Of a DNA stretch of 50,088 nt, positions 1 through 50,088 are shown one piece after another (the first letter of the stretch is position 1; each line of letters starts with the position of its first letter). A program made the translations under genes and the position numbers. The stretch lies in IMG/VR virus record IMGVR_UViG_3300028809_000019, positions 1 through 50,088 of that record; one strand, given 5' to 3'. The notes under the pieces were generated by a model. That model had not been told where the DNA came from. It was given only the letters and a program-made list of their open reading frames with translations, and did not search any database. Source of the DNA: a virus. Taxonomy: Duplodnaviria > Caudoviricetes.

Positions 1-9
1 TCCGCAGTT

Positions 10-135
10 CTCGCAGCCCGGCAATCCGCAGTGATCTTGCCATTCTTCATCGCGCCAGTCATGACGGCCATCAATAAACCGTCGCAACTCACTTTCGCTA
101 AACTCGGGTCGCCGATAATACGTCAGGTCGGCAAA
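10..135. repeat. 126-bp terminal direct repeat, copy 1 (assembly circularisation overlap)
   Basis: Identical to 49963-50088; first 9 nt of the window do not match. Confidence 0.95.
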
Positions 136-2045: not shown

Positions 2046-2270
2046 CTAGCGCACCATGACCGACAGGACCAACACGACCCCCGGAATGATGATAACGAGC
2101 AGGGTCGCCGTTGCGATCGATACGGCAAAGCCCCGCCAGTCGCCCAGCGACCGGATGACCCGGCTCGGCGTCGGTCGGATCGGGTCGGTATATTGCATCT
2201 CGCGCAGGGCGTCCGGATGGCTGGCACGGTTGAAAGCCTCTAGGGCGTCACGATGGGGGTTGTTGGTCAT
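2046..2270 (-). CDS. Small membrane protein, 74 aa
   Basis: C-terminal hydrophobic helix; tight coupling to neighbours. Confidence 0.7.
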   Translation of the reverse strand: MTNNPHRDALEAFNRASHPDALREMQYTDPIRPTPSRVIRSLGDWRGFAVSIATATLLVIIIPGVVLVLSVMVR

Positions 2271-2503
2271 TACAGTGCGCGCACTTCGACCGAAACAATC
2301 GTCACCATCGGGCCAGCCGTCAAATCTTCGTTGCGGCTGATGAGAGGCCGACCGATGTTGCGGCGATCCAAAACCGCATGATTTTCGGCAGTGACGAGGC
2401 TGCGCGTTTCGAACCGACGAACCTTGCCGCAGGCATAGGTCGTTATAACTTCATGGGTCTTCGGTGCGGCCAGTGCGGCGTTAATCAGGGTCATGGCGTC
2501 CAT
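2270..2503 (-). CDS. Hypothetical protein, 77 aa, first gene of the antisense moron operon
   Basis: AAGGAGA SD before ATG 2503; just downstream of the leftward promoter. Confidence 0.75.
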   Translation of the reverse strand: MDAMTLINAALAAPKTHEVITTYACGKVRRFETRSLVTAENHAVLDRRNIGRPLISRNEDLTAGPMVTIVSVEVRAL

Positions 2504-2525: not shown

Positions 2526-2593
2526 GCTATACCGGCCATTGACCGTCCCGTCAATACCTTTCTTTCTATCAGTTCCGCCCGTATTGTTCGTCA
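2526..2593. promoter_or_regulatory. Bidirectional cassette 1: palindrome 2539-2554; leftward TTGACG-17-TATAGC; rightward -10 TATTGT 2582-2587 before leaderless ATG 2594
   Basis: Read directly from the sequence; conserved with three other copies. Confidence 0.8.
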
Positions 2594-2944
2594 ATGGCCG
2601 CAACCTTCCTTCTAGACCGTGACGCGTGGGACGTGGCGCTCGATGCGTCGGGCAATATTGCCGTTGCGACCGAACCATATAGTCAAGTCCAAGATGCGGC
2701 CAGCGCGGTCCGTGTCTTTGAGGGTGAGGCTTACTATAATACGACCCTCGGCGTCCCGTACTGGACGGACGTTCTGGGCCGCGCGCAACCTTCGCAAATC
2801 ATGCGGGCCCGAGCGCAGCAAGCCGCAATGACCGTCCCCGGCGTGATCGACGCAACCGCCGTACTGACCACGCTGCCGAACCGCACGCTCGGCGGGCAGA
2901 TCCAGATAAAGACCGCTACGGGCGAGATAGGGATTACCATATGA
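2594..2944 (+). CDS. Baseplate wedge / sheath initiator (gp25-like)
   Basis: WDVALDASGNIA and GEAYYNTTLGVPY motifs; precedes baseplate J. Confidence 0.8.
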   Translation: MAATFLLDRDAWDVALDASGNIAVATEPYSQVQDAASAVRVFEGEAYYNTTLGVPYWTDVLGRAQPSQIMRARAQQAAMTVPGVIDATAVLTTLPNRTLGGQIQIKTATGEIGITI

Positions 2945-18386: not shown

Positions 18387-18587
18387 ATGAGTCGAGAATT
18401 TATGGTCCTGATCGTTCCCGAGCCTTCGGAAGATGCGATCGATTTGGACGACTCGCCGGCCCGCATTTTCATGCGATTTACCGAACCGCCCAGCGACGAC
18501 TTTCTGGGTCGACTGGCCGACGGAAATCCGGGTCACCGCGTTTACTGCCTGATGGGCGCGTCCTCTTGGTATTCGGGGCGGACATGA
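18387..18587 (+). CDS. Hypothetical protein, 66 aa
   Basis: Strong SD; first gene after a promoter. Confidence 0.75.
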   Translation: MSREFMVLIVPEPSEDAIDLDDSPARIFMRFTEPPSDDFLGRLADGNPGHRVYCLMGASSWYSGRT

Positions 18588-18609: not shown

Positions 18610-19245
18610 ATGACCAACAGAGCTTTTCATAACGACACGTCGCTGGCTGTAACTGTCCGTACGCAGGTAGCCGACCACACGGTAGCCGACGAGATTATCC
18701 AAGGGAAATATTGGGAGAAAGGCAAAGGCTGCTTTATCGGCTGTATTGCCCATGGTTCGGACCCGTCGATCGTCGAGCAACTGACGGGCTTTCCGCTTAT
18801 GCTGACGAAACTGGCGGAAGGTATTTTCGAAAGCCTGCCGAACGAAGTGGCCAAAGGTTTCCCGCAGCGAATTATCGAAGCGCCTCGCATCGGCGCGGAC
18901 TTGTCGCTCGTGTCGTGGAAATTTCTGCATTGGCTGATTGACGACGTTCTGACGGAACATGCGGACGACAAGACTCGCGCGGCCTGCTCGCCGGCTCTTG
19001 AAATCGTTGCGGCAAAATCACGTGGTGAAGAAGTTTCTTCCGATGCCGCCGCCCGCGCCGCCGATGCCGCCGATGCCGCCGCCTATGCCGCCGCCTATGC
19101 CGCCGATGCCGCCGCCCGTGCCGCCCGTGCCGCCCGTGCCGCCGCCCGCGCCGCCGATGCCGCCGCCCGTGCCGCCGATGCCGCCGATGCCGCCGCCCGA
19201 ATCCGGCAGGCTGATAAACTGGTCGAACTACTAGGTGCGGCGTGA
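18610..19245 (+). CDS. Hypothetical protein with Ala-rich AAx repeat tail
   Basis: AAGGAGA SD; GCFIGC motif; C-terminal AAR/AAD/AAY repeats. Confidence 0.85.
   Translation: MTNRAFHNDTSLAVTVRTQVADHTVADEIIQGKYWEKGKGCFIGCIAHGSDPSIVEQLTGFPLMLTKLAEGIFESLPNEVAKGFPQRIIEAPRIGADLSLVSWKFLHWLIDDVLTEHADDKTRAACSPALEIVAAKSRGEEVSSDAAARAADAADAAAYAAAYAADAAARAARAARAAARAADAAARAADAADAAARIRQADKLVELLGAA
19042..19200 (+). repeat. Degenerate 9-bp tandem repeat GCCGCC(CGY/GAT/TAT)
   Basis: Directly visible; encodes the Ala-rich tract. Confidence 0.9.
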
Positions 19246-25476: not shown

Positions 25477-25489
25477 AGTAATTATGGGT

Positions 25490-25755
25490 TTTTGATCGTG
25501 GATAACGTGTATTTATAAACCCACGGTTTTCTGCGGTTATCCACCATTATCCACGAATCCACGTAGAATCAGTTCGGTGGCTATGGGTGCGTGTGTATGT
25601 GCGCGCACGTATGTAACAATGTGTATATATGGTGGATAAGGTGGATAAGGTGGATAATATTATAAATAACTATTAGTTTTCAACTACTTAATGAACTATC
25701 CACGATTTTTCATAATTTATAGAATGGTGGATATGGGTGGATAACGCTAAATTAC
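25490..25755. repeat. AT-rich putative replication origin with GTGGATAA/TTATCCAC iterons
   Basis: Perfect 8-mers at 25498, 25537, 25547, 25632, 25641, 25650 and 25737; variants at 25556, 25696 and 25727; no credible ORF. Confidence 0.75.
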
Positions 25756-41239: not shown

Positions 41240-41674
41240 TCACCACGTCCGGTGCGTTTCGGCGACCCATTCCAGCCCGTCGTAATTTTCGATTTGCCAC
41301 GATACGCCGGAGGGGATCGAGGTTACGTCGAGTTTCGCAAACTCCCCGTTCGCTTCGTCACCGAGTTCCTCGATAGCCGCGATCAAAGCCAGATCATCTC
41401 GGTCGATATCGCATGGCGTCAGGCTGGCAGCATCCCACGCCGCGTTTGATGCTTGACGTTCTTCCAGCGACATTTCGTGGAAATTATCCTGATCCGGCGG
41501 GCGTTGCTCGACAGGAACGAGCCAATACGTCCAGAACCCATATGGTTTTCCGTCATGTTCGGGATAGAGCGTGATGCCTTTGTGGCGCGCGTAGGCAAGC
41601 ACGCCTGCATGGCTTAGGCCGAACCCCCCGTGGCAGCGGTTAACGACGATTTTTTGAATACCTGTTTCGGACAC
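41240..41674 (-). CDS. Conserved phage hypothetical protein, first gene of the moron
   Basis: KIV.N.C.GGFGLS...R.D..L...IEELG..ANG...YDG.E; AAGGAGA SD with GTG. Confidence 0.85.
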   Translation of the reverse strand: MSETGIQKIVVNRCHGGFGLSHAGVLAYARHKGITLYPEHDGKPYGFWTYWLVPVEQRPPDQDNFHEMSLEERQASNAAWDAASLTPCDIDRDDLALIAAIEELGDEANGEFAKLDVTSIPSGVSWQIENYDGLEWVAETHRTW

Positions 41675-41696: not shown

Positions 41697-41764
41697 ACCT
41701 TACGCATATTGACCGTCCCGTCAATACCTATTTTTCCCCCGCGTCCTGTCGTATGCTCCCCGCC
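41697..41764. promoter_or_regulatory. Bidirectional cassette 2: palindrome 41709-41724; leftward TTGACG-16-TAAGGT; rightward TATGCT 41752-41757 before leaderless ATG 41765
   Basis: 41708-41740 is identical to 47094-47126 (33 bp). Confidence 0.8.
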
Positions 41765-42295
41765 ATGGCCGCAACCGTAGACTTAACCGAACAAGCCGTC
41801 TTTACCGGCCTGCGCGCGTTCGTCCTCGACGTGCTGACGGTCGGGCCGACCAACGTCATCAAGGGCCAAGCGAACCGCGTGCCGATGCCCGCCGGTCCGA
41901 ACTTCGTAATCCTGACGCCGACGGGCCGCGCGCAACTTGCCACGACCAAACGCACCTACCTACCGTCAGCCCAGCCCGCCCCGGCACCCGGCCAGCGCGA
42001 CACGCAGCGGCAAACCCGGCTGGACGTGCAGTTCGATGTGTACGGCCCGGCAGCGGCCGAGAACGTCCAGATTATCTCCACGCTGCTCCGCGACATGTAC
42101 GGCTGCGACTTCCTGCGACCCCATCAGGTCCAGCCGCTCTATTGTGGCGACCCCAAGCAATTGCCGCTCGTCACGGGCGAATTGCAATATCTGGCGCGGT
42201 GGATGCTCGGGGCGACTTTGCAATTCAATCCTACGGTATCGACAAGCCAGCAGTTTGCCGATATTGTGGACGTCACCCTAGTAGAGGCGGATTAA
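41765..42295 (+). CDS. Tail terminator / neck protein
   Basis: GQ.NRVP.P, Q.DVYG, PLY...P.Q, Q.NP; precedes the sheath. Confidence 0.82.
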   Translation: MAATVDLTEQAVFTGLRAFVLDVLTVGPTNVIKGQANRVPMPAGPNFVILTPTGRAQLATTKRTYLPSAQPAPAPGQRDTQRQTRLDVQFDVYGPAAAENVQIISTLLRDMYGCDFLRPHQVQPLYCGDPKQLPLVTGELQYLARWMLGATLQFNPTVSTSQQFADIVDVTLVEAD

Positions 42296-42297
42296 AA

Positions 42298-43782
42298 ATG
42301 GCGAATAGCATCCCGGCGAAAGATATCGTCAATGTCGTGCCGGGTGTCGTCAGCCCCGGCGGAACCGGCCTCGATATGGTCGGGCTGATCCTGACCGAGT
42401 CCGTCCGTGCGCCGGTCGGCCAAGTCCTACGGTTCCCGACCGCGCGCGCCGTCTCCGATTATTTCGGTCCGACCAGCGACGAGGCGAACGCCGCGACCAT
42501 CTATTTTAACGGCTACGCCGGCGCGACGTCGGTTCCGGCGTTCATCCTGTTCTCGGCGCACACGCTGACCGCCCGTGCTGGCTGGATCCGCGGCGCCGCG
42601 CTCGGTCTGACGCTGGCCGAACTGCAAGCCCTGACCGGCACGCTGACGATCGACTTCGGCGGCACCCCCATCACCAGCGCCGCAATCGTGCTGACCACCG
42701 CCACGAGCTTTTCGAACGCCGCGACCATCATTCAGGCGGCCTTTACGTCGCCGGACTTCGCGGTCACTTACGACGGCCTGACCGGATCGTTCCTGTTCAC
42801 CAGCACGGCGACGGGTGACGTGGCGACGATCGTCTATGCGACCGGCACGATCGCGGCGGGTCTGAAGCTGACCGAAGCGACTGGCGCGACCCTCTCCCAG
42901 GGGCAGGACGCCCAGACCGCCGCCGAGACGATGGACGCGGTAACGGACGCAACGCAGAACTTCGTGACCTTTACGCATCTGGCCGAACTGACCGACGACG
43001 AGATCGTCGAGTTCGCGACGTGGAACGGCACGCAGGACGACCGGTTCCTTTACGTCGCCTGGACGGACTCGCCGGCCGCCATCACGAACAGCGACACGAC
43101 CAGCCCCGCCGTGCGGATCGCCGCGCTCGAACTGTCGGGAACGGCAAGCATCTGGTCGCCGACGTTCCACAAGGCCGTGTTTATTCTCGGTTACGCAGCG
43201 GCGATCGACTTCAACCGCGACAATGGCCGCACGGTCGCCGCGTTCCGTCGGGGCCAAGGGCTCGCCGCGGACGTGACGAACCAGACGATCGCGAACAACC
43301 TGCTCGCCAACGGCTATAGTTTCTATGGCACCTACGCGACGGCCAACGACGACTTCACGTGGATTTATAACGGCACGGTCAGCGGCCCGTTCGCGTTCAT
43401 CGACTCGTATCTCAATCAGATTTGGATGAACAACGCGTTCCAGCTGTCGCTGATGAACCTGCTTGGGCAGGTCGGCCAGATCCCCTATAATGATGACGGT
43501 TACGAGCTGATCGGCGCCGGCTTGACCACCGATATTTCCAACGCGGTCGACTTCGGCGCGATCCGTGCGGGCGTGGTCCTGTCCGAAGCGCAAAAGACGA
43601 TCATTATCGGAATCGCCGGTTCGGACATTTCTGACATTCTCTTTACCCGCGGCTGGGAACTGACAATCCAAGATCCCGGCCCGGCTGTCCGTGCCGAACG
43701 CGGCTCGCCGATCTGCACGTTCTTTTATACGGATGGTCAGTCGGTCCAGAAGATCACTCTCTCCAGCCTGATGGTGCAATAA
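42298..43782 (+). CDS. Tail sheath protein (DUF3383-like)
   Basis: IPA..IV.V.PGV, YG.YAT.N, D.Y.NQIW, IPYN..G, R.SP....FY.DG. Confidence 0.92.
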   Translation: MANSIPAKDIVNVVPGVVSPGGTGLDMVGLILTESVRAPVGQVLRFPTARAVSDYFGPTSDEANAATIYFNGYAGATSVPAFILFSAHTLTARAGWIRGAALGLTLAELQALTGTLTIDFGGTPITSAAIVLTTATSFSNAATIIQAAFTSPDFAVTYDGLTGSFLFTSTATGDVATIVYATGTIAAGLKLTEATGATLSQGQDAQTAAETMDAVTDATQNFVTFTHLAELTDDEIVEFATWNGTQDDRFLYVAWTDSPAAITNSDTTSPAVRIAALELSGTASIWSPTFHKAVFILGYAAAIDFNRDNGRTVAAFRRGQGLAADVTNQTIANNLLANGYSFYGTYATANDDFTWIYNGTVSGPFAFIDSYLNQIWMNNAFQLSLMNLLGQVGQIPYNDDGYELIGAGLTTDISNAVDFGAIRAGVVLSEAQKTIIIGIAGSDISDILFTRGWELTIQDPGPAVRAERGSPICTFFYTDGQSVQKITLSSLMVQ

Positions 43783-43786
43783 GACT

Positions 43787-44227
43787 ATGGCCAACAATCG
43801 GACTCTCACCGCCGCGAACGCCATCATCATGATCGGCGTGCAGGGCCTATTCGACACGCCTCGTCGCTTGCAGGGCTTCGCGGCGGATAACGTCACGACG
43901 ATCGACCCGGTATCGAACGCCGAGACGTCCATGGGTATCGACGGGCGGCTGTCGGCCGGTTTCATTCACAACCCGATCCAACAGGCCATCACGCTCCAGG
44001 CGGACAGCGAGTCGGTCGACATGTTCGAATTTTGGAACGCCTCGCAGCGTCAGCGCCGGGAGGCCTATGTGTGCTTCGGGTCGATCCTCCTGCGCGCTAC
44101 GGGCAAACGCTACGTGATGACGCGCGGCTTCCTGACCACGGCGAGCCTGATGCCTGCCATTAACAAGACGCTCCAGCCGCGCCAGTTTACGCTGATGTGG
44201 GAGAACGTCACGGTCGGGCCGGCTTAA
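43787..44227 (+). CDS. Tail tube protein
   Basis: T.T.AN, LQGF..D, MG.DG.LSAG, LQADS; follows the sheath. Confidence 0.88.
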   Translation: MANNRTLTAANAIIMIGVQGLFDTPRRLQGFAADNVTTIDPVSNAETSMGIDGRLSAGFIHNPIQQAITLQADSESVDMFEFWNASQRQRREAYVCFGSILLRATGKRYVMTRGFLTTASLMPAINKTLQPRQFTLMWENVTVGPA

Positions 44228-44250
44228 CGAATACCTGCTCCTTGGGTCGC

Positions 44251-44291
44251 AAAGAAAACCCCCGGTAGCTTACGAGCCGCCGGGGGTTTTT
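44251..44291. terminator. Bidirectional intrinsic terminator
   Basis: AAAACCCCCGGTAGCT-TACG-AGCCGCCGGGGGTTTT, with A/T runs on both sides. Confidence 0.85.
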
Positions 44292-44380
44292 CGTTCGTAG
44301 GGGGCGAACGGTTTTACTTATATCCGCGCATTTTGGCCTCCTGGGTTAGAGAATCAAAACAAGCACTACACTTCTAACCC
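44252..44380 (-). ncRNA. Candidate ~125-nt structured sRNA / minigene transcript (MRGYK, 44314-44331)
   Basis: Own promoter and terminator; three hairpins; AGGAGG-5nt-ATG CGC GGA TAT AAG TAA. Confidence 0.6.
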
Positions 44381-44384
44381 CGCC

Positions 44385-44446
44385 AGATTGCCCGCATCTG
44401 ACCGCCCCGTCAATACCTTTCTTTCCTCCCGCGCGAGCCTTATTGT
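44385..44446. promoter_or_regulatory. Bidirectional cassette 3: palindrome variant 44398-44413; leftward TTGACG-17-CAATCT; rightward TATTGT 44441-44446
   Basis: 27-nt match with one mismatch to cassette 1; same 27-nt spacing to the rightward -10. Confidence 0.75.
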
Positions 44447-44486
44447 CGGCCCCGGCCCCTCACGGGGGCTAATCAGGGAGTGACCA

Positions 44487-44996
44487 ATGGCACGCAAAGT
44501 AAAGATGATCCGCATACCGGCAGACCCGCCGAGTCGGGACGCGGGCAAGACCTTCCAGCTGACCGAAATGTCCGCCGCGCAGTCCGAAAAATGGGCCCTT
44601 CGCGCGCTCGGGGCTATCGCGAACAGCGGCATGGAAATTCCCGAAGACGTGATGCGCCTCGGTATGGGCGCCCTCGTGGCGGTCGGCTTCAAAGGTCTGC
44701 TGACCATGCAGTTCGACGAGGCCGAGCCGCTGCTGGACGAAATGATGGATTGCATCGTGATCGTGCCGGACCCGAAGAACCCCGGCGTCGTCCGGCCCGT
44801 CGATGACGAGGATATTGAGGACGTGACGACCCGCCTGACTTTGCGTTCGGAGGTGTTCGAATTGCACACGGGTTTTTCGCCGGCCGGCTTCCTCTCGAAA
44901 TTAGGGACGTCGGCGAAACAGACCCCGGTTACGTCGGATTTGCCAACGTCCCCCAAACCATCGGCAACGCCGTCGCCAGCGGACGGGCAACCCTGA
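44487..44996 (+). CDS. Tail assembly chaperone (G-like)
   Basis: RD.GK.F..TEMSA.Q.E.WA, PLLDEM..C, DIE.V.T...LR; between tube and tape measure. Confidence 0.85.
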   Translation: MARKVKMIRIPADPPSRDAGKTFQLTEMSAAQSEKWALRALGAIANSGMEIPEDVMRLGMGALVAVGFKGLLTMQFDEAEPLLDEMMDCIVIVPDPKNPGVVRPVDDEDIEDVTTRLTLRSEVFELHTGFSPAGFLSKLGTSAKQTPVTSDLPTSPKPSATPSPADGQP

Positions 44997-45115
44997 TCGA
45001 GCTGCAAACCGTCTACGGCCTGGAGGATCTTTACGACCTGCTGGAAATTGGCCGGATCGAGTCGTATAACGAACGTCTGGCGCACGAGGCCGCCGCTAAT
45101 CGGGACGACGGATAA
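44870..45115 (+). CDS. -1 frameshift extension of the chaperone (GT-like)
   Basis: Slippery G GGT TTT at 44870-44876; -1 frame open for 81 codons (...ATLIELQTVYGLEDLYDLLE...) to a TAA overlapping the tape measure ATG. Confidence 0.8.
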   Translation, partial: GFFAGRLPLEIRDVGETDPGYVGFANVPQTIGNAVASGRATLIELQTVYGLEDLYDLLEIGRIESYNERLAHEAAANRDDG

Positions 45116-46888: not shown

Positions 46889-47059
46889 TCAGGCGATCGA
46901 GATCAAGAGGTCGGCAACCTCCGACACGTCCATCGAAATCAGATAGCCCTCGATTTCGGCGGGATTGCTGGCGGCGTATTTAGCCGCCTTCGCCGCGCCG
47001 TGCATTCCGAGAGCTTTCATTTCAGTCAGTTCGGTGATTACGTCGTTAATGTCGGCCAT
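46889..47059 (-). CDS. 56-aa acidic helical moron protein
   Basis: AAGGAGA SD before ATG 47059; directly after the cassette 4 promoter. Confidence 0.75.
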   Translation of the reverse strand: MADINDVITELTEMKALGMHGAAKAAKYAASNPAEIEGYLISMDVSEVADLLISIA

Positions 47060-47081: not shown

Positions 47082-47149
47082 CGTTTACCTACCATTGACC
47101 GTCCCGTCAATACCTATTTTTCCCCCCGCCCATGTGGCATTGTCGGACC
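47082..47149. promoter_or_regulatory. Bidirectional cassette 4: palindrome 47095-47110; leftward TTGACG-17-TAAACG; rightward CATTGT 47138-47143 before leaderless ATG 47150
   Basis: 33-bp identity with cassette 2. Confidence 0.8.
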
Positions 47150-48076
47150 ATGAGCGCGCTTTACCCTAATGTGCCGGACGTCCCCGGCGTCCCGGTCGTC
47201 AATCGCGCGACCACGGCCATATCAACAGCGATCGACGGTGCCGCGCAATCACGCAGCGCCTCGCAGGTCGGTCTGGACCTGATCGAAGCGGGCGACTTCC
47301 CGACTGCGGCCCTGTCGTTCATAGCGGGCGGCAACCTTGCGCAAGCGGCCCTCGTGCTGGTCGATCCCGTATTTGCCAGCGGCTCGTTACCGTCCGGGGC
47401 GCTCAACTCGGCGGCGGGCATGGCGCAAGGTGCGGCCAACGCTCTTACATCCGGCGACATTGCGGGCGCGGTCAACGCGGGCCTTCAGTCGATCAGCTAT
47501 GCGACCGAAGCGATCCTGTCGATGCGGGACGTCCTCAACCCGCCGGGCGTGCCGATACTGGCCGACAGCGGTCCCGAGGTTCAAGCCGATATCGCCCAGC
47601 AATGGGGGCTTTACGATCAGAGCGGATTGCCTGCCGTTCTCGCCGATAACGTCCAATCGCTGGAAGTCACGCTCGAGGCGCAAATTAGCGACTTCCCCGT
47701 CGAGAACGGCGGGTTCGCCTCGTATAATAAAGTGATCCGCCCTTTCGACGTGCGAGTCGCCATGACGAAAGGCGGATCGGTAGAGGATCGCCAGGCGTTC
47801 GTGCAGCAAGTGCAGGACGCGTGGCAATCGCTCGAGCTGTTTAATGTGGTCACGCCTGAGGTCGTTTATCTGGACGTCAACGTCGTGGGCGTGCGGCGAC
47901 TGGTCGAGTCGGACCGCGGTGTCGGGTTAATGATGCTCGACGTATCTTTACGCAAGGTCCGTCAGACCGGGCGTCTGGCATTTACCAGCACGGCGCAACC
48001 GGCGAGCGCGGGCGTCAACAATAACGGCGCGGTCCAGACGCAAACAGACTTCCGGTATGAAGGGACCGTCAGCTAA
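47150..48076 (+). CDS. Baseplate / tube-initiator (Dit-like) protein
   Basis: P.VP.VPGVP, QWG.Y, SDFPVE.G.FASYNKV..P. Confidence 0.82.
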   Translation: MSALYPNVPDVPGVPVVNRATTAISTAIDGAAQSRSASQVGLDLIEAGDFPTAALSFIAGGNLAQAALVLVDPVFASGSLPSGALNSAAGMAQGAANALTSGDIAGAVNAGLQSISYATEAILSMRDVLNPPGVPILADSGPEVQADIAQQWGLYDQSGLPAVLADNVQSLEVTLEAQISDFPVENGGFASYNKVIRPFDVRVAMTKGGSVEDRQAFVQQVQDAWQSLELFNVVTPEVVYLDVNVVGVRRLVESDRGVGLMMLDVSLRKVRQTGRLAFTSTAQPASAGVNNNGAVQTQTDFRYEGTVS

Positions 48077-49921: not shown

Positions 49922-50088
49922 AGTTGCTGCCAGTGCGCGGCGACTTCCCCGCCTTCGCAAAGCTCGCAGCCCGGCAATCCGCAGTGATCTTGCCATTCTT
50001 CATCGCGCCAGTCATGACGGCCATCAATAAACCGTCGCAACTCACTTTCGCTAAACTCGGGTCGCCGATAATACGTCAGGTCGGCAAA
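49918..50088 (-). CDS. 3' part of the junction-spanning hypothetical protein (C-terminal H-C-x4-C-x2-C cluster)
   Basis: Same frame as 10..369 after circularisation; its stop overlaps the stop of the convergent spike gene. Confidence 0.7.
   Translation of the reverse strand, partial: FADLTYYRRPEFSESELRRFIDGRHDWRDEEWQDHCGLPGCELCEGGEVAAHWQQL
49963..50088. repeat. 126-bp terminal direct repeat, copy 2
   Basis: Identical to 10-135. Confidence 0.95.

What the first reader, a model, noticed from the sequence alone, without database searches (positions are those of the whole stretch)
44252..44413. Dedicated transcription unit encoding only a three-hairpin RNA and a 5-codon minigene (MRGYK)
Seen: cassette 3's leftward promoter (TTGACG-17-CAATCT) points into ~125 nt that end at a terminator. 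The RNA has an 8-bp 5' hairpin (GGGTTAGA/TCTAACCC), then a perfect AGGAGG 5 nt before ATG CGC GGA TAT AAG TAA, then a 6-bp hairpin with a CCCCCUA loop, then the terminator. The other three cassettes drive protein morons from the same position. Known: lambda bar minigenes sequester tRNA by peptidyl-tRNA drop-off, pentapeptide minigenes can act on the ribosome in cis, and C-rich loops can pair with SD sequences. Inference: this may be a ribosome or tRNA-Lys sink, an anti-defence decoy RNA, or an SD-targeting sRNA.
Basis: partly seen in the sequence, partly recalled or inferred. Interest (0 to 1): 0.8.

Follow-up and report, generated by a model that had tools for sequence, protein, structure and literature searches.

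The report
RNA-only cargo in phage accessory slot
Between the tail-tube and tail-chaperone genes of an uncultured phage lies a promoter-to-terminator unit of about 125 bases that holds only a hairpin RNA with a five-codon frame, at a site where related phages carry small proteins or nothing; whether the RNA does anything is not shown.

Summary
The leftward promoter is one copy of a repeated promoter cassette. I found 21 copies in this phage and three relatives. In 18 of them an SD-led ORF of 56-144 aa follows. Two have no leftward -10 or ORF. Only this copy is followed by a 5-codon ORF.

The site is variable. Two close relatives have the terminator butted against the rightward promoter. Two others carry unrelated ORFs of 113 and 110 aa. 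In distant relatives the tube and chaperone genes abut.

The ~107-nt insert has no homologue in Rfam, the phage records, IMG/VR or the relatives. Contigs of three other metagenome runs do cover it at about 89-92% identity, so it is a recurring allele. One of those contigs has a 1-nt deletion inside the minigene.

Outside the terminator the fold is no better than shuffled sequence. No expression data could be obtained.

Best reading: an accessory early transcription unit whose cargo is a small RNA (0.4). Nearly as likely: a transcribed vestige (0.35). A tRNA or ribosome sink has no support.

The parts
43787..44227 (+). Tail tube gene (146 aa), upstream neighbour. Its transcript ends at the shared terminator.
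   Evidence: ORF. PHROG phrog_1964, virion structural protein, E 4.6e-47. It follows the sheath gene (phrog_205).
44250..44291 (.). Bidirectional intrinsic terminator T1: a G+C stem-loop with an A-run on one side and a T-run on the other. It ends both the tube mRNA (+) and the small RNA (-).
   Evidence: -25 kcal/mol, z -5.2. Inverted repeat I1. It is present at the same place in relatives that lack the insert, L006 and L052, so it belongs to the tube gene first.
44292..44310 (-). Hairpin 2: a 6-bp stem with loop CCCCCUA on the minus-strand RNA. On the + strand the same hairpin is followed by TTTTAC and looks like a weak second terminator.
   Evidence: -5.4 kcal/mol. Hairpin 2 is not part of the minimum-energy fold of the whole RNA.
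44314..44331 (-). Five-codon ORF ATG CGC GGA TAT AAG TAA (MRGYK).
   Evidence: A 1-nt deletion at 44324 is seen in one relative contig, X2 record 9, at depth 3.9.
44337..44342 (-). Perfect Shine-Dalgarno AGGAGG, 5 nt before the ATG.
   Evidence: It is the only AGGAGG-N4-9-ATG in the whole window on either strand.
44343..44380 (-). 5' hairpin: an 8-bp stem with a 22-nt A/U- and G/U-rich loop, at or within 1-3 nt of the predicted 5' end.
   Evidence: I3. -9.7 kcal/mol, z -2.7.
44385..44413 (-). Leftward promoter: -35 TTGACG, 17-nt spacer, -10 CAATCT.
   Evidence: The same layout is found at the other cassettes, 18 of which have an SD-led ORF behind them. The -10 here is the only one of these that starts with C instead of T.
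44398..44430 (.). Conserved cassette core: imperfect palindrome CTGAC-N6-GTCAA plus an A/T-rich tract. One of 5 full copies in the window.
   Evidence: (D3), 12 and 28: 12 matches against 0.16 expected.
44441..44486 (+). Rightward -10-like TATTGT (44441-44446) and the leader of the chaperone gene, with SD GGGAG.
   Evidence: TATTGT is kept in all four close relatives at this site.
44487..44996 (+). Tail assembly chaperone gene (169 aa), downstream neighbour.
   Evidence: phrog_1932, E 1.4e-42.

Best explanation
This is an accessory, moron-like transcription unit whose cargo is a small RNA rather than a protein.

Shown:
- The phage has a lytic-type gene set: DNA polymerase, primase, helicase, gp2.5-like SSB, exonuclease and a myovirus tail.
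- It uses one repeated promoter cassette, with an A-rich tract, TTGACG, 17 nt and TAnnnn.
- The same promoter layout precedes its replication genes.
- It also sits, pointing backwards, in front of several late gene blocks.
- The first gene behind each backward-pointing copy differs from phage to phage.
- At the tube/chaperone site this phage has, in place of such a gene, 107 nt that run from the promoter to the tube gene's bidirectional terminator.

Inferred:
- Host RNA polymerase starts near 44378 early in infection and stops at the terminator.
- This gives an RNA of about 125 nt with a 5' stem-loop and a 3' terminator hairpin, both of which favour stability.
- The RNA itself, not the pentapeptide, is the product.
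- It acts in trans on a host component, as a regulatory or decoy RNA.
- The strong SD and short ORF either load a ribosome that shields the middle of the RNA, or are left over from a former gene.

The target is unknown.
For: Promoter layout:
- 21 cassette copies with at most 1 mismatch occur in the window (5) and three relatives (6, 2 and 8).
- 18 of them have an SD-led ORF of 56-144 aa starting 21-38 nt after the -10.
- 2 have no leftward -10 or ORF, and 1 (this one) has a 5-aa ORF after 53 nt.
- The same promoter layout lies before the SSB/polymerase, exonuclease and primase blocks.

Terminator and variable site:
- The terminator is strong in both directions.
- The site is variable. L006 and L052 are empty. 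L005 has a 113-aa ORF and L051 a 110-aa ORF. Distant relatives have no intergenic space there.

The insert recurs in other runs:
- X2 record 9 spans 44137-44768 in one piece, with 42 other letters and 22 gaps.
- X4 record 19 spans 44181-44391, with 13 other letters and 3 gaps.
- X3 record 13 spans 44298-44447, with 12 other letters and 4 gaps.

Possible constraint, from X3:
- In X3 the insert and cassette are about 89% identical to the window.
- The neighbouring coding pieces are 82% (51 of 287) and 86.5% (74 of 548) identical.
- In four relatives at similar distance, third codon positions are only 60-77% identical.
- This suggests constraint on the insert, or recent exchange of the segment.

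The SD plus ATG is locally far from chance.
Against: - No transcript evidence of any kind.
- The -10 matches the consensus at 2 of 6 positions and is the only one of the gene-bearing set that lacks the leading T. The generic promoter scan does not flag it.
- Without the terminator the RNA folds no better than shuffles: z -0.61, 48 of 200.
- In X4 the stretch is 92.4% identical while a coding piece is 96.4% identical (7 of 196). That is about the neutral expectation, so the constraint signal is mixed.
- I could not obtain the sequences of the other contigs, so no covariation test was possible.
- There is no Rfam family, and no pairing with phage start regions beyond chance.
- Empty alleles show that the unit is dispensable.
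- A perfect SD is unusual for a purely non-coding RNA.
Confidence: 0.4

Rival explanations
1. Vestige. A protein-coding accessory gene once sat here. A deletion removed nearly all of its ORF and left its 5' leader, SD, start codon and a few codons fused to the 3' untranslated end. The promoter may still fire, but the short transcript has no role.
For: - The SD plus ATG look like a true translation start, as in the 18 protein cassettes.
- The site turns over quickly: four alleles are read directly, and a tentative fifth has about 232 other letters in X2 record 6.
- One allele, L051, is itself only a helicase-like N-terminal piece: ResIII E 0.0013, below the cutoff, and phrog_16 E 3.2e-5.
- The -10 here is the most deviant.
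- The fold outside the terminator is not significant.
- X4 diverges at about the neutral rate, and there is a frameshifting deletion in X2.
Against: - There is no sequence similarity to any ORF at the same site or elsewhere in the relatives.
- The 53-nt leader with a hairpin is unlike the 21-38-nt leaders of all 18 protein cassettes.
- The allele persists in three other runs, and in X3 it is better kept than third codon positions would predict.
- Clean empty alleles exist, so junk can be lost.
Confidence: 0.35
2. Working minigene. The strong SD drives repeated translation of MRGYK. Either peptidyl-tRNA drops off and ties up tRNA-Lys, as with the lambda bar minigenes, or ribosomes are titrated.
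For: - It has the only perfect AGGAGG-N5-ATG in the genome.
- The ORF is shorter than 7 codons. That is the length at which peptidyl-tRNA can leave the ribosome (passage read in PMC8012679).
- Shorter minigenes inhibit more strongly (abstract of PMC2490762).
Against: - One relative contig has a 1-nt deletion at 44324. It would shift the frame and remove the stop before the terminator. The depth is 3.9, so it may be an error.
- The bar minigenes have one sense codon, whereas this one has four.
- In the predicted fold the SD is paired with GCCCCCU.
- Nothing shows toxicity or translation.
Confidence: 0.07
3. Plus-strand or DNA-level role. The insert serves the late genes. Hairpin 2 plus TTTTAC acts as a second terminator behind T1, and the rest is a spacer that keeps read-through from the heavily transcribed sheath-tube operon out of the cassette. 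The leftward transcript is a by-product.
For: - A terminator-like site is found on the + strand at 44291-44311.
- The + strand folds well: z -3.84, 0 of 200 shuffles.
- Cassettes can exist with no working leftward promoter, as at G001 10861.
Against: - Terminator-like sites in the region are no more frequent than in shuffles: 8 found against 9.4 expected.
- The + strand z-score is dominated by T1.
- Empty alleles do without a second terminator.
- It does not explain the SD plus ATG.
Confidence: 0.1

Closest known systems
Morons of tailed phages: an extra unit with its own promoter and terminator, inserted between genes that are adjacent in relatives. The concept is recalled; no paper on it was read here.
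   Same: It is inserted between two genes that are adjacent in relatives. It has its own promoter and is bounded by a terminator. The cargo differs from phage to phage.
   Different: - The cargo is an RNA with a 5-codon ORF, not a protein.
- The phage has a lytic-type gene set and I saw no integrase, though I did not search for one systematically.
- The terminator is borrowed from the neighbouring late gene.
- All the units share one conserved promoter cassette.
Lambda bar minigenes
   Same: An SD-led ORF of a few codons carried by a phage. The nascent chain is shorter than 7 residues, the length prone to peptidyl-tRNA drop-off (PMC8012679, passage read).
   Different: bar encodes fMet-Ile only (same passage), whereas this ORF has four sense codons ending in Lys. 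No toxicity data exist, and the frame may not be kept in one relative.
RNA anti-CRISPRs (Racrs, solitary repeat units)
   Same: A small non-coding RNA encoded by a phage directly behind its own promoter, among accessory genes (PMC10651486, abstract and passages read).
   Different: Racrs are defined by likeness to a host CRISPR repeat. The host is unknown, and no CRISPR-repeat family of Rfam matched at E up to 10.
phi29 early/late switch region (promoters A2c, A2b and A3 with proteins p4 and p6)
   Same: Back-to-back early and late promoters share one regulator-binding region, which allows repression and activation at the same time (PMC3100819, abstract seen in a search listing). Here a palindrome overlaps the -35 of the leftward early-type promoter and lies upstream of a rightward promoter that lacks a -35.
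   Different: No regulator has been identified here and the proteins are unrelated. This comparison concerns the cassette, not the RNA.

Membership tests
Moron (phage accessory transcription unit) | Lies between two genes that are adjacent in related phages | tested here: met
   L006 and L052 have only the terminator and the rightward promoter between tube and chaperone. In six distant relatives examined, the two genes abut.
Moron (phage accessory transcription unit) | Own promoter and own terminator | tested here: inconclusive
   The promoter layout is shared with 18 gene-bearing cassettes, but its activity is untested. The terminator is strong in this direction but is also present in empty alleles, so it is shared with the tube gene.
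Lambda bar-type toxic minigene | SD, start codon, very few sense codons, stop | tested here: met
   AGGAGG-5 nt-ATG, four sense codons, TAA. The length is under the 7-residue drop-off range quoted in PMC8012679.
Lambda bar-type toxic minigene | Reading frame kept among relatives | tested here: inconclusive
   Of three contigs that cover it, X2 record 9 has a 1-nt deletion at 44324 at depth 3.9. No deletion at that place is listed for X3 or X4, and 16 further indel rows were not shown.
Lambda bar-type toxic minigene | Peptidyl-tRNA accumulation and toxicity when peptidyl-tRNA hydrolase is limiting | not testable with these tools
   Needs expression in a pth-deficient laboratory strain.
Racr / solitary CRISPR repeat unit | Sequence and fold resemble a CRISPR repeat of the host | tested here: inconclusive
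   No CRISPR-repeat family is among the 12 sub-threshold Rfam matches at E up to 10. The host and its repeats are unknown. That Rfam holds such families is recalled.
Type III antitoxin RNA (ToxI-like) | Tandem direct repeats next to a toxin gene (feature recalled) | tested here: not met
   0 tandem repeats in 44150-44550 at minimum score 30. No direct repeat longer than 9 nt in the intergenic region.
Any described RNA family (Rfam 15) | Reaches the family's gathering score | tested here: not met
   0 matches in the whole window. In 44150-44550 the best scores are 14-20 bits against cutoffs of 39-114 bits, and most fall on the terminator.
Trans-acting base-pairing sRNA | Conserved single-stranded seed with a target | tested here: inconclusive
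   Pairing of three single-stranded parts with 43 phage start regions is no better than for shuffled seeds, p about 0.5 each. Host targets could not be tested, and seed conservation could not be read.

The most novel reading that the evidence does not exclude
The RNA is a counter-host cargo carried in the same hypervariable slots as the phage's small orphan proteins. It could be a decoy for a host defence or RNA-binding protein. It could instead be an abundant early RNA whose exposed perfect SD competes for 30S subunits and tilts translation toward the phage's own late mRNAs. Those late mRNAs appear to be leaderless and SD-free.
Probability: 0.08. Interest if true: 0.8.

Novelty: new member of a known kind. 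Interest (0 to 1): 0.38.

Why it matters
If the RNA works, it would show that the fast-changing accessory slots of lytic phages can carry RNA cargo as well as small proteins. Such slots are usually mined only for proteins, for example anti-defence factors, so protein-only screens would miss part of the repertoire. The unit is small and self-contained, and it exists in nature beside an empty allele and protein alleles at the same site. That makes a clean comparison possible. If it is a vestige, it still documents how these slots turn over.

Tried and rejected
- **Rfam.** At gathering scores on the whole window there were 0 matches. At E up to 10 on 44150-44550 there were only sub-threshold hits, most on the terminator.
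- **tRNA and tmRNA.** None found.
- **Homologues of the insert.**
  - blastn against phage records gave only 12-22% coverage, mostly terminator-like pieces.
  - Search against relatives G001-G003 gave nothing better than E 0.3.
  - blastn-short against all held loci gave chance-length matches only.
  - Four exact or gapped patterns in IMG/VR gave 0, 0, 16 and 46 stretches. None of the 62 extended beyond the pattern by more than 4 nt.
- **Expression.** No RNA holder was listed by the look-up of sequencing runs, so expression could not be addressed.
- **Contig sequences.** The contigs of X2-X4 could not be retrieved, because read laying is limited to one call. 232 substitution rows and 16 indel rows were not shown. 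No covariation test was therefore possible.
- **Targets within the phage.** Duplex energies with 43 start regions equal those of shuffled seeds.
- **Replication-origin idea (promoter plus A/T-rich stretch).** Rejected. The insert's lowest 40-nt G+C is 0.40, whereas 25479-25694 falls to 0.15-0.28.
- **Antitoxin-like repeats.** None.
- **Remnant of the phage's own helicase in L051.** Only 26% identity, E 0.026, so it is not a recent copy.
- **Earlier notes of this scan.** None found.
- **Alternative allele in X2.** The joint in X2 record 6, with about 232 other letters in place of 44292-44398, has only 28 letters on one side, so that allele is tentative.
- **Supplements.** Supplementary files of the papers were not opened.

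Full report
**What the window is.** The window is a complete or nearly complete virus record: 50,088 bp, 97% complete by the record's own estimate. It has a 133-nt direct repeat at its two ends (D2). PHROG matches give a family-A DNA polymerase, primase, helicase, gp2.5-like SSB, exonuclease and two DNA methyltransferases. They also give terminase, portal, major head protein, tail sheath, a tube-like structural protein, tail assembly chaperone, tape measure and baseplate wedge. It is therefore a myovirus with its own replication genes. The closest cultured relatives of the major head protein are only 47% identical. The finding lies in the 259-nt gap between the tube gene (43787-44227) and the chaperone gene (44487-44996).

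**Checking the observation.**
- TTGACG at 44413-44408, 17 nt, CAATCT at 44390-44385.
- An 8-bp hairpin at 44380-44343.
- AGGAGG at 44342-44337.
- ATG CGC GGA TAT AAG TAA at 44331-44314.
- A 6-bp hairpin with a C-rich loop at 44310-44292.
- A strong terminator at 44291-44250.

The terminator gives -25 kcal/mol with z -5.2. The 5' hairpin gives -9.7 kcal/mol with z -2.7. The 89 nt without the terminator fold no better than shuffles (z -0.61, 48 of 200). The minimum-energy fold pairs the SD with GCCCCCU instead of forming hairpin 2. 'Three-hairpin RNA' is thus true of the sequence, but only the terminator, and modestly the first hairpin, stand out statistically.

AGGAGG-N4-9-ATG occurs exactly once in the window, here, against 1.13 expected for the whole 50 kb. 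Its presence in this 107-nt stretch is therefore unlikely to be chance.

**The promoter is a copy of a repeated cassette.**
- The repeat finder gave four + strand copies and one - strand copy of a roughly 32-nt element, whose core is TTGACCGnnCCGTCAATAC.
- With up to 3 mismatches the core gives 12 matches in the window, against 0.16 expected.
- In three relatives it is equally frequent, and a reversed control pattern gives 0.

I read all 21 copies that have at most one mismatch, on the strand opposite to the motif. Each shows an A-rich tract, TTGACG, 17 nt (16 in three copies) and TAnnnn.
- In 18 of the 21, an SD (mostly GGAGA) and an ORF of 56-144 aa start 21-38 nt after the -10. Two ORFs that my script miscalled were corrected.
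- Two copies have no -10 and no ORF on that side.
- The copy of this finding is the only one followed by a 5-codon ORF, after a 53-nt leader.

The same promoter layout stands before the exonuclease, SSB/polymerase and primase blocks. I therefore infer that it is the phage's early or middle promoter class, read by host RNA polymerase.

The -10 of this copy, CAATCT, is the only one in the gene-bearing set that does not begin with T. The generic sigma-70 scan does not flag it. Most of the other -10s would fail that scan as well.

**The site in relatives.**
- In L006 (the same contig as L053) and L052, with tube proteins 88% identical, the terminator is followed at once by TTGACC-18 nt-TATTGT and the chaperone gene. 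There is no cassette and no insert.
- L005 (90% identical) has the cassette and a 113-aa ORF on the minus strand, ending at the terminator.
- L051 (85% identical) has the cassette and a 110-aa ORF that resembles the N-terminus of a helicase. It has no terminator.
- In six distant relatives (42-52% identical) the chaperone gene starts within about 10 nt of the tube stop codon.

The site is therefore a hot spot for accessory cargo, and the terminator belongs first to the tube gene. Of ten accessory ORFs scanned, nine have no Pfam family and nine of ten no PHROG.

**Is the insert unique?**
- It has no match in Rfam.
- It has no match in the phage records beyond terminator-like pieces.
- It has no match in the relatives' whole contigs.
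- It has no match in IMG/VR with four anchor patterns.

When contigs of four public runs were laid on 43700-45100 at 80% likeness, three runs other than the probable source covered the insert.
- X2 record 9 covers 44137-44768 in one piece, with 42 other letters and 22 gaps.
- X4 record 19 covers 44181-44391, with 13 other letters and 3 gaps.
- X3 record 13 covers 44298-44447, with 12 other letters and 4 gaps.
- X3 record 12 reaches 44315 from the tube gene.

The insert is therefore a recurring allele in related phages, not a one-off. I could not read those contigs letter by letter, so no covariation test was possible.

**What can be said about constraint.**
- In X3 the insert plus cassette is about 89% identical to the window. 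The neighbouring coding pieces are 82% and 86.5% identical.
- For four relatives with 76-86% overall identity in the tube and chaperone genes, third codon positions are only 60-77% identical.
- The X3 figure is thus higher than a neutral stretch should show. That indicates constraint or recent exchange.
- In X4 the opposite holds: the intergenic piece is 92.4% identical and a coding piece 96.4%, which is about the neutral rate.
- X2 record 9 has a 1-nt deletion at 44324, inside codon 3 of the minigene. If the rest of the contig is like the window, the frame would then run through the terminator without a stop. The depth is 3.9, so this may be an assembly error.

**Mechanism.** I commit, at 0.4, to an accessory early unit whose product is a stable RNA of about 125 nt acting in trans. 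The promoter layout, the terminator, the variability of the site and the recurrence of the allele are shown. The start site, the timing, the stability and any target are inferred.

A transcribed vestige of a deleted gene is nearly as likely (0.35). It explains the SD plus ATG, the deviant -10 and the weak fold. It does not explain the unusual leader or the persistence of the allele. A bar-like minigene (0.07) and a + strand terminator or spacer role (0.10) remain possible. No pairing with the phage's own start regions exceeds chance.

**Comparison with known systems.**
- By position it qualifies as a moron. The concept is recalled, not read here.
- By layout it resembles the Racr units, which are small RNAs directly behind their own promoter in phage accessory regions (PMC10651486, abstract and passages). 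The defining likeness to a CRISPR repeat could not be tested.
- Its ORF is within the length range prone to peptidyl-tRNA drop-off. The lambda bar minigenes, however, encode only fMet-Ile (PMC8012679, passage; PMC2490762, abstract).
- It belongs to no described RNA family.

I rate it a new member of a known kind, namely a phage-encoded small transcription unit, with moderate interest. Function is unproven, but the natural allele series at one site makes it easy to test.

Noticed in passing
window 2539, 12540, 15283, 18330, 22106, 26972, 41709, 44398, 47095 (motif starts); also G001, G002, G003:C20: One promoter/operator motif is spread over the whole genome. Its palindrome TTGAC-N6-GTCAA overlaps the -35 and spacer. 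There are 12 matches in the window against 0.16 expected, and it is equally frequent in three relatives, with 0 for the reversed control. This suggests a single phage regulator acting at all early-type promoters. No regulator was looked for.
   Followed up: partly
window 2582-2596, about 41757-41772, 47138-47152; relatives: Late gene blocks to the right of the cassettes start with ATG 6-7 nt after a -10-like TATTGT, TATGCT or TACGGT, and have no SD. This holds for three of the four + strand cassettes in the window and for eight in the relatives. It suggests leaderless late mRNAs from promoters that lack a -35. The leftward genes, by contrast, have strong SDs.
   Followed up: partly
window 2270-2503(-), 41240-41674(-), 46889-47059(-), 18387-18587(+); L005 3502-3843(-); L051 3438-3770(-): The first gene behind each cassette differs between closely related phages and is nearly always an orphan: 9 of 10 have no Pfam family and 9 of 10 no PHROG. 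The 144-aa one matches phrog_16527, of unknown function. The copies at 2539 and 47095 share 72% identity over 107 nt of flank (D5).
   Followed up: partly
L005 3460-3500 compared with window 44255-44291: In G001/L005 the inner 37 nt of the tube terminator hairpin are the exact reverse complement of the window's, while the flanks keep their orientation. The hairpin has flipped between its own arms.
   Followed up: no
L051 3438-3770(-): The cargo at the same site in L051 is a 110-aa protein with only the N-terminal motifs of a helicase: ResIII E 0.0013, below the cutoff, and phrog_16 E 3.2e-5. It is 26% identical to the window's own helicase. It may be a gene fragment or a decoy. Its stop codon overlaps the tube gene's stop codon, and there is no terminator.
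   Followed up: partly
window 25479-25694: This is the most A/T-rich stretch of the genome, at 15-28% G+C in 40-nt windows against 61% overall. It lies just after the primase gene and is a candidate replication origin or regulatory region.
   Followed up: no
window 19015-19212: A run of 13 overlapping copies of a GCCGCC-rich unit with alternating 9- and 12-nt spacing (D1). It probably encodes a low-complexity repeat protein on one of the strands.
   Followed up: no
window 3-135 and 49956-50088: A 133-nt direct repeat, 98% identical, at the two ends of the record (D2). It indicates terminal redundancy or a circular assembly.
   Followed up: no
L051 = contig of 50,526 bp in a MAG labelled Phycisphaeraceae: A whole relative phage genome, about the same length as the window, sits as one contig in a planctomycete-labelled bin. 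This is either a host hint or a binning artefact. It is the only hit among the genomes of 185,579 species, so prophage forms seem rare.
   Followed up: no
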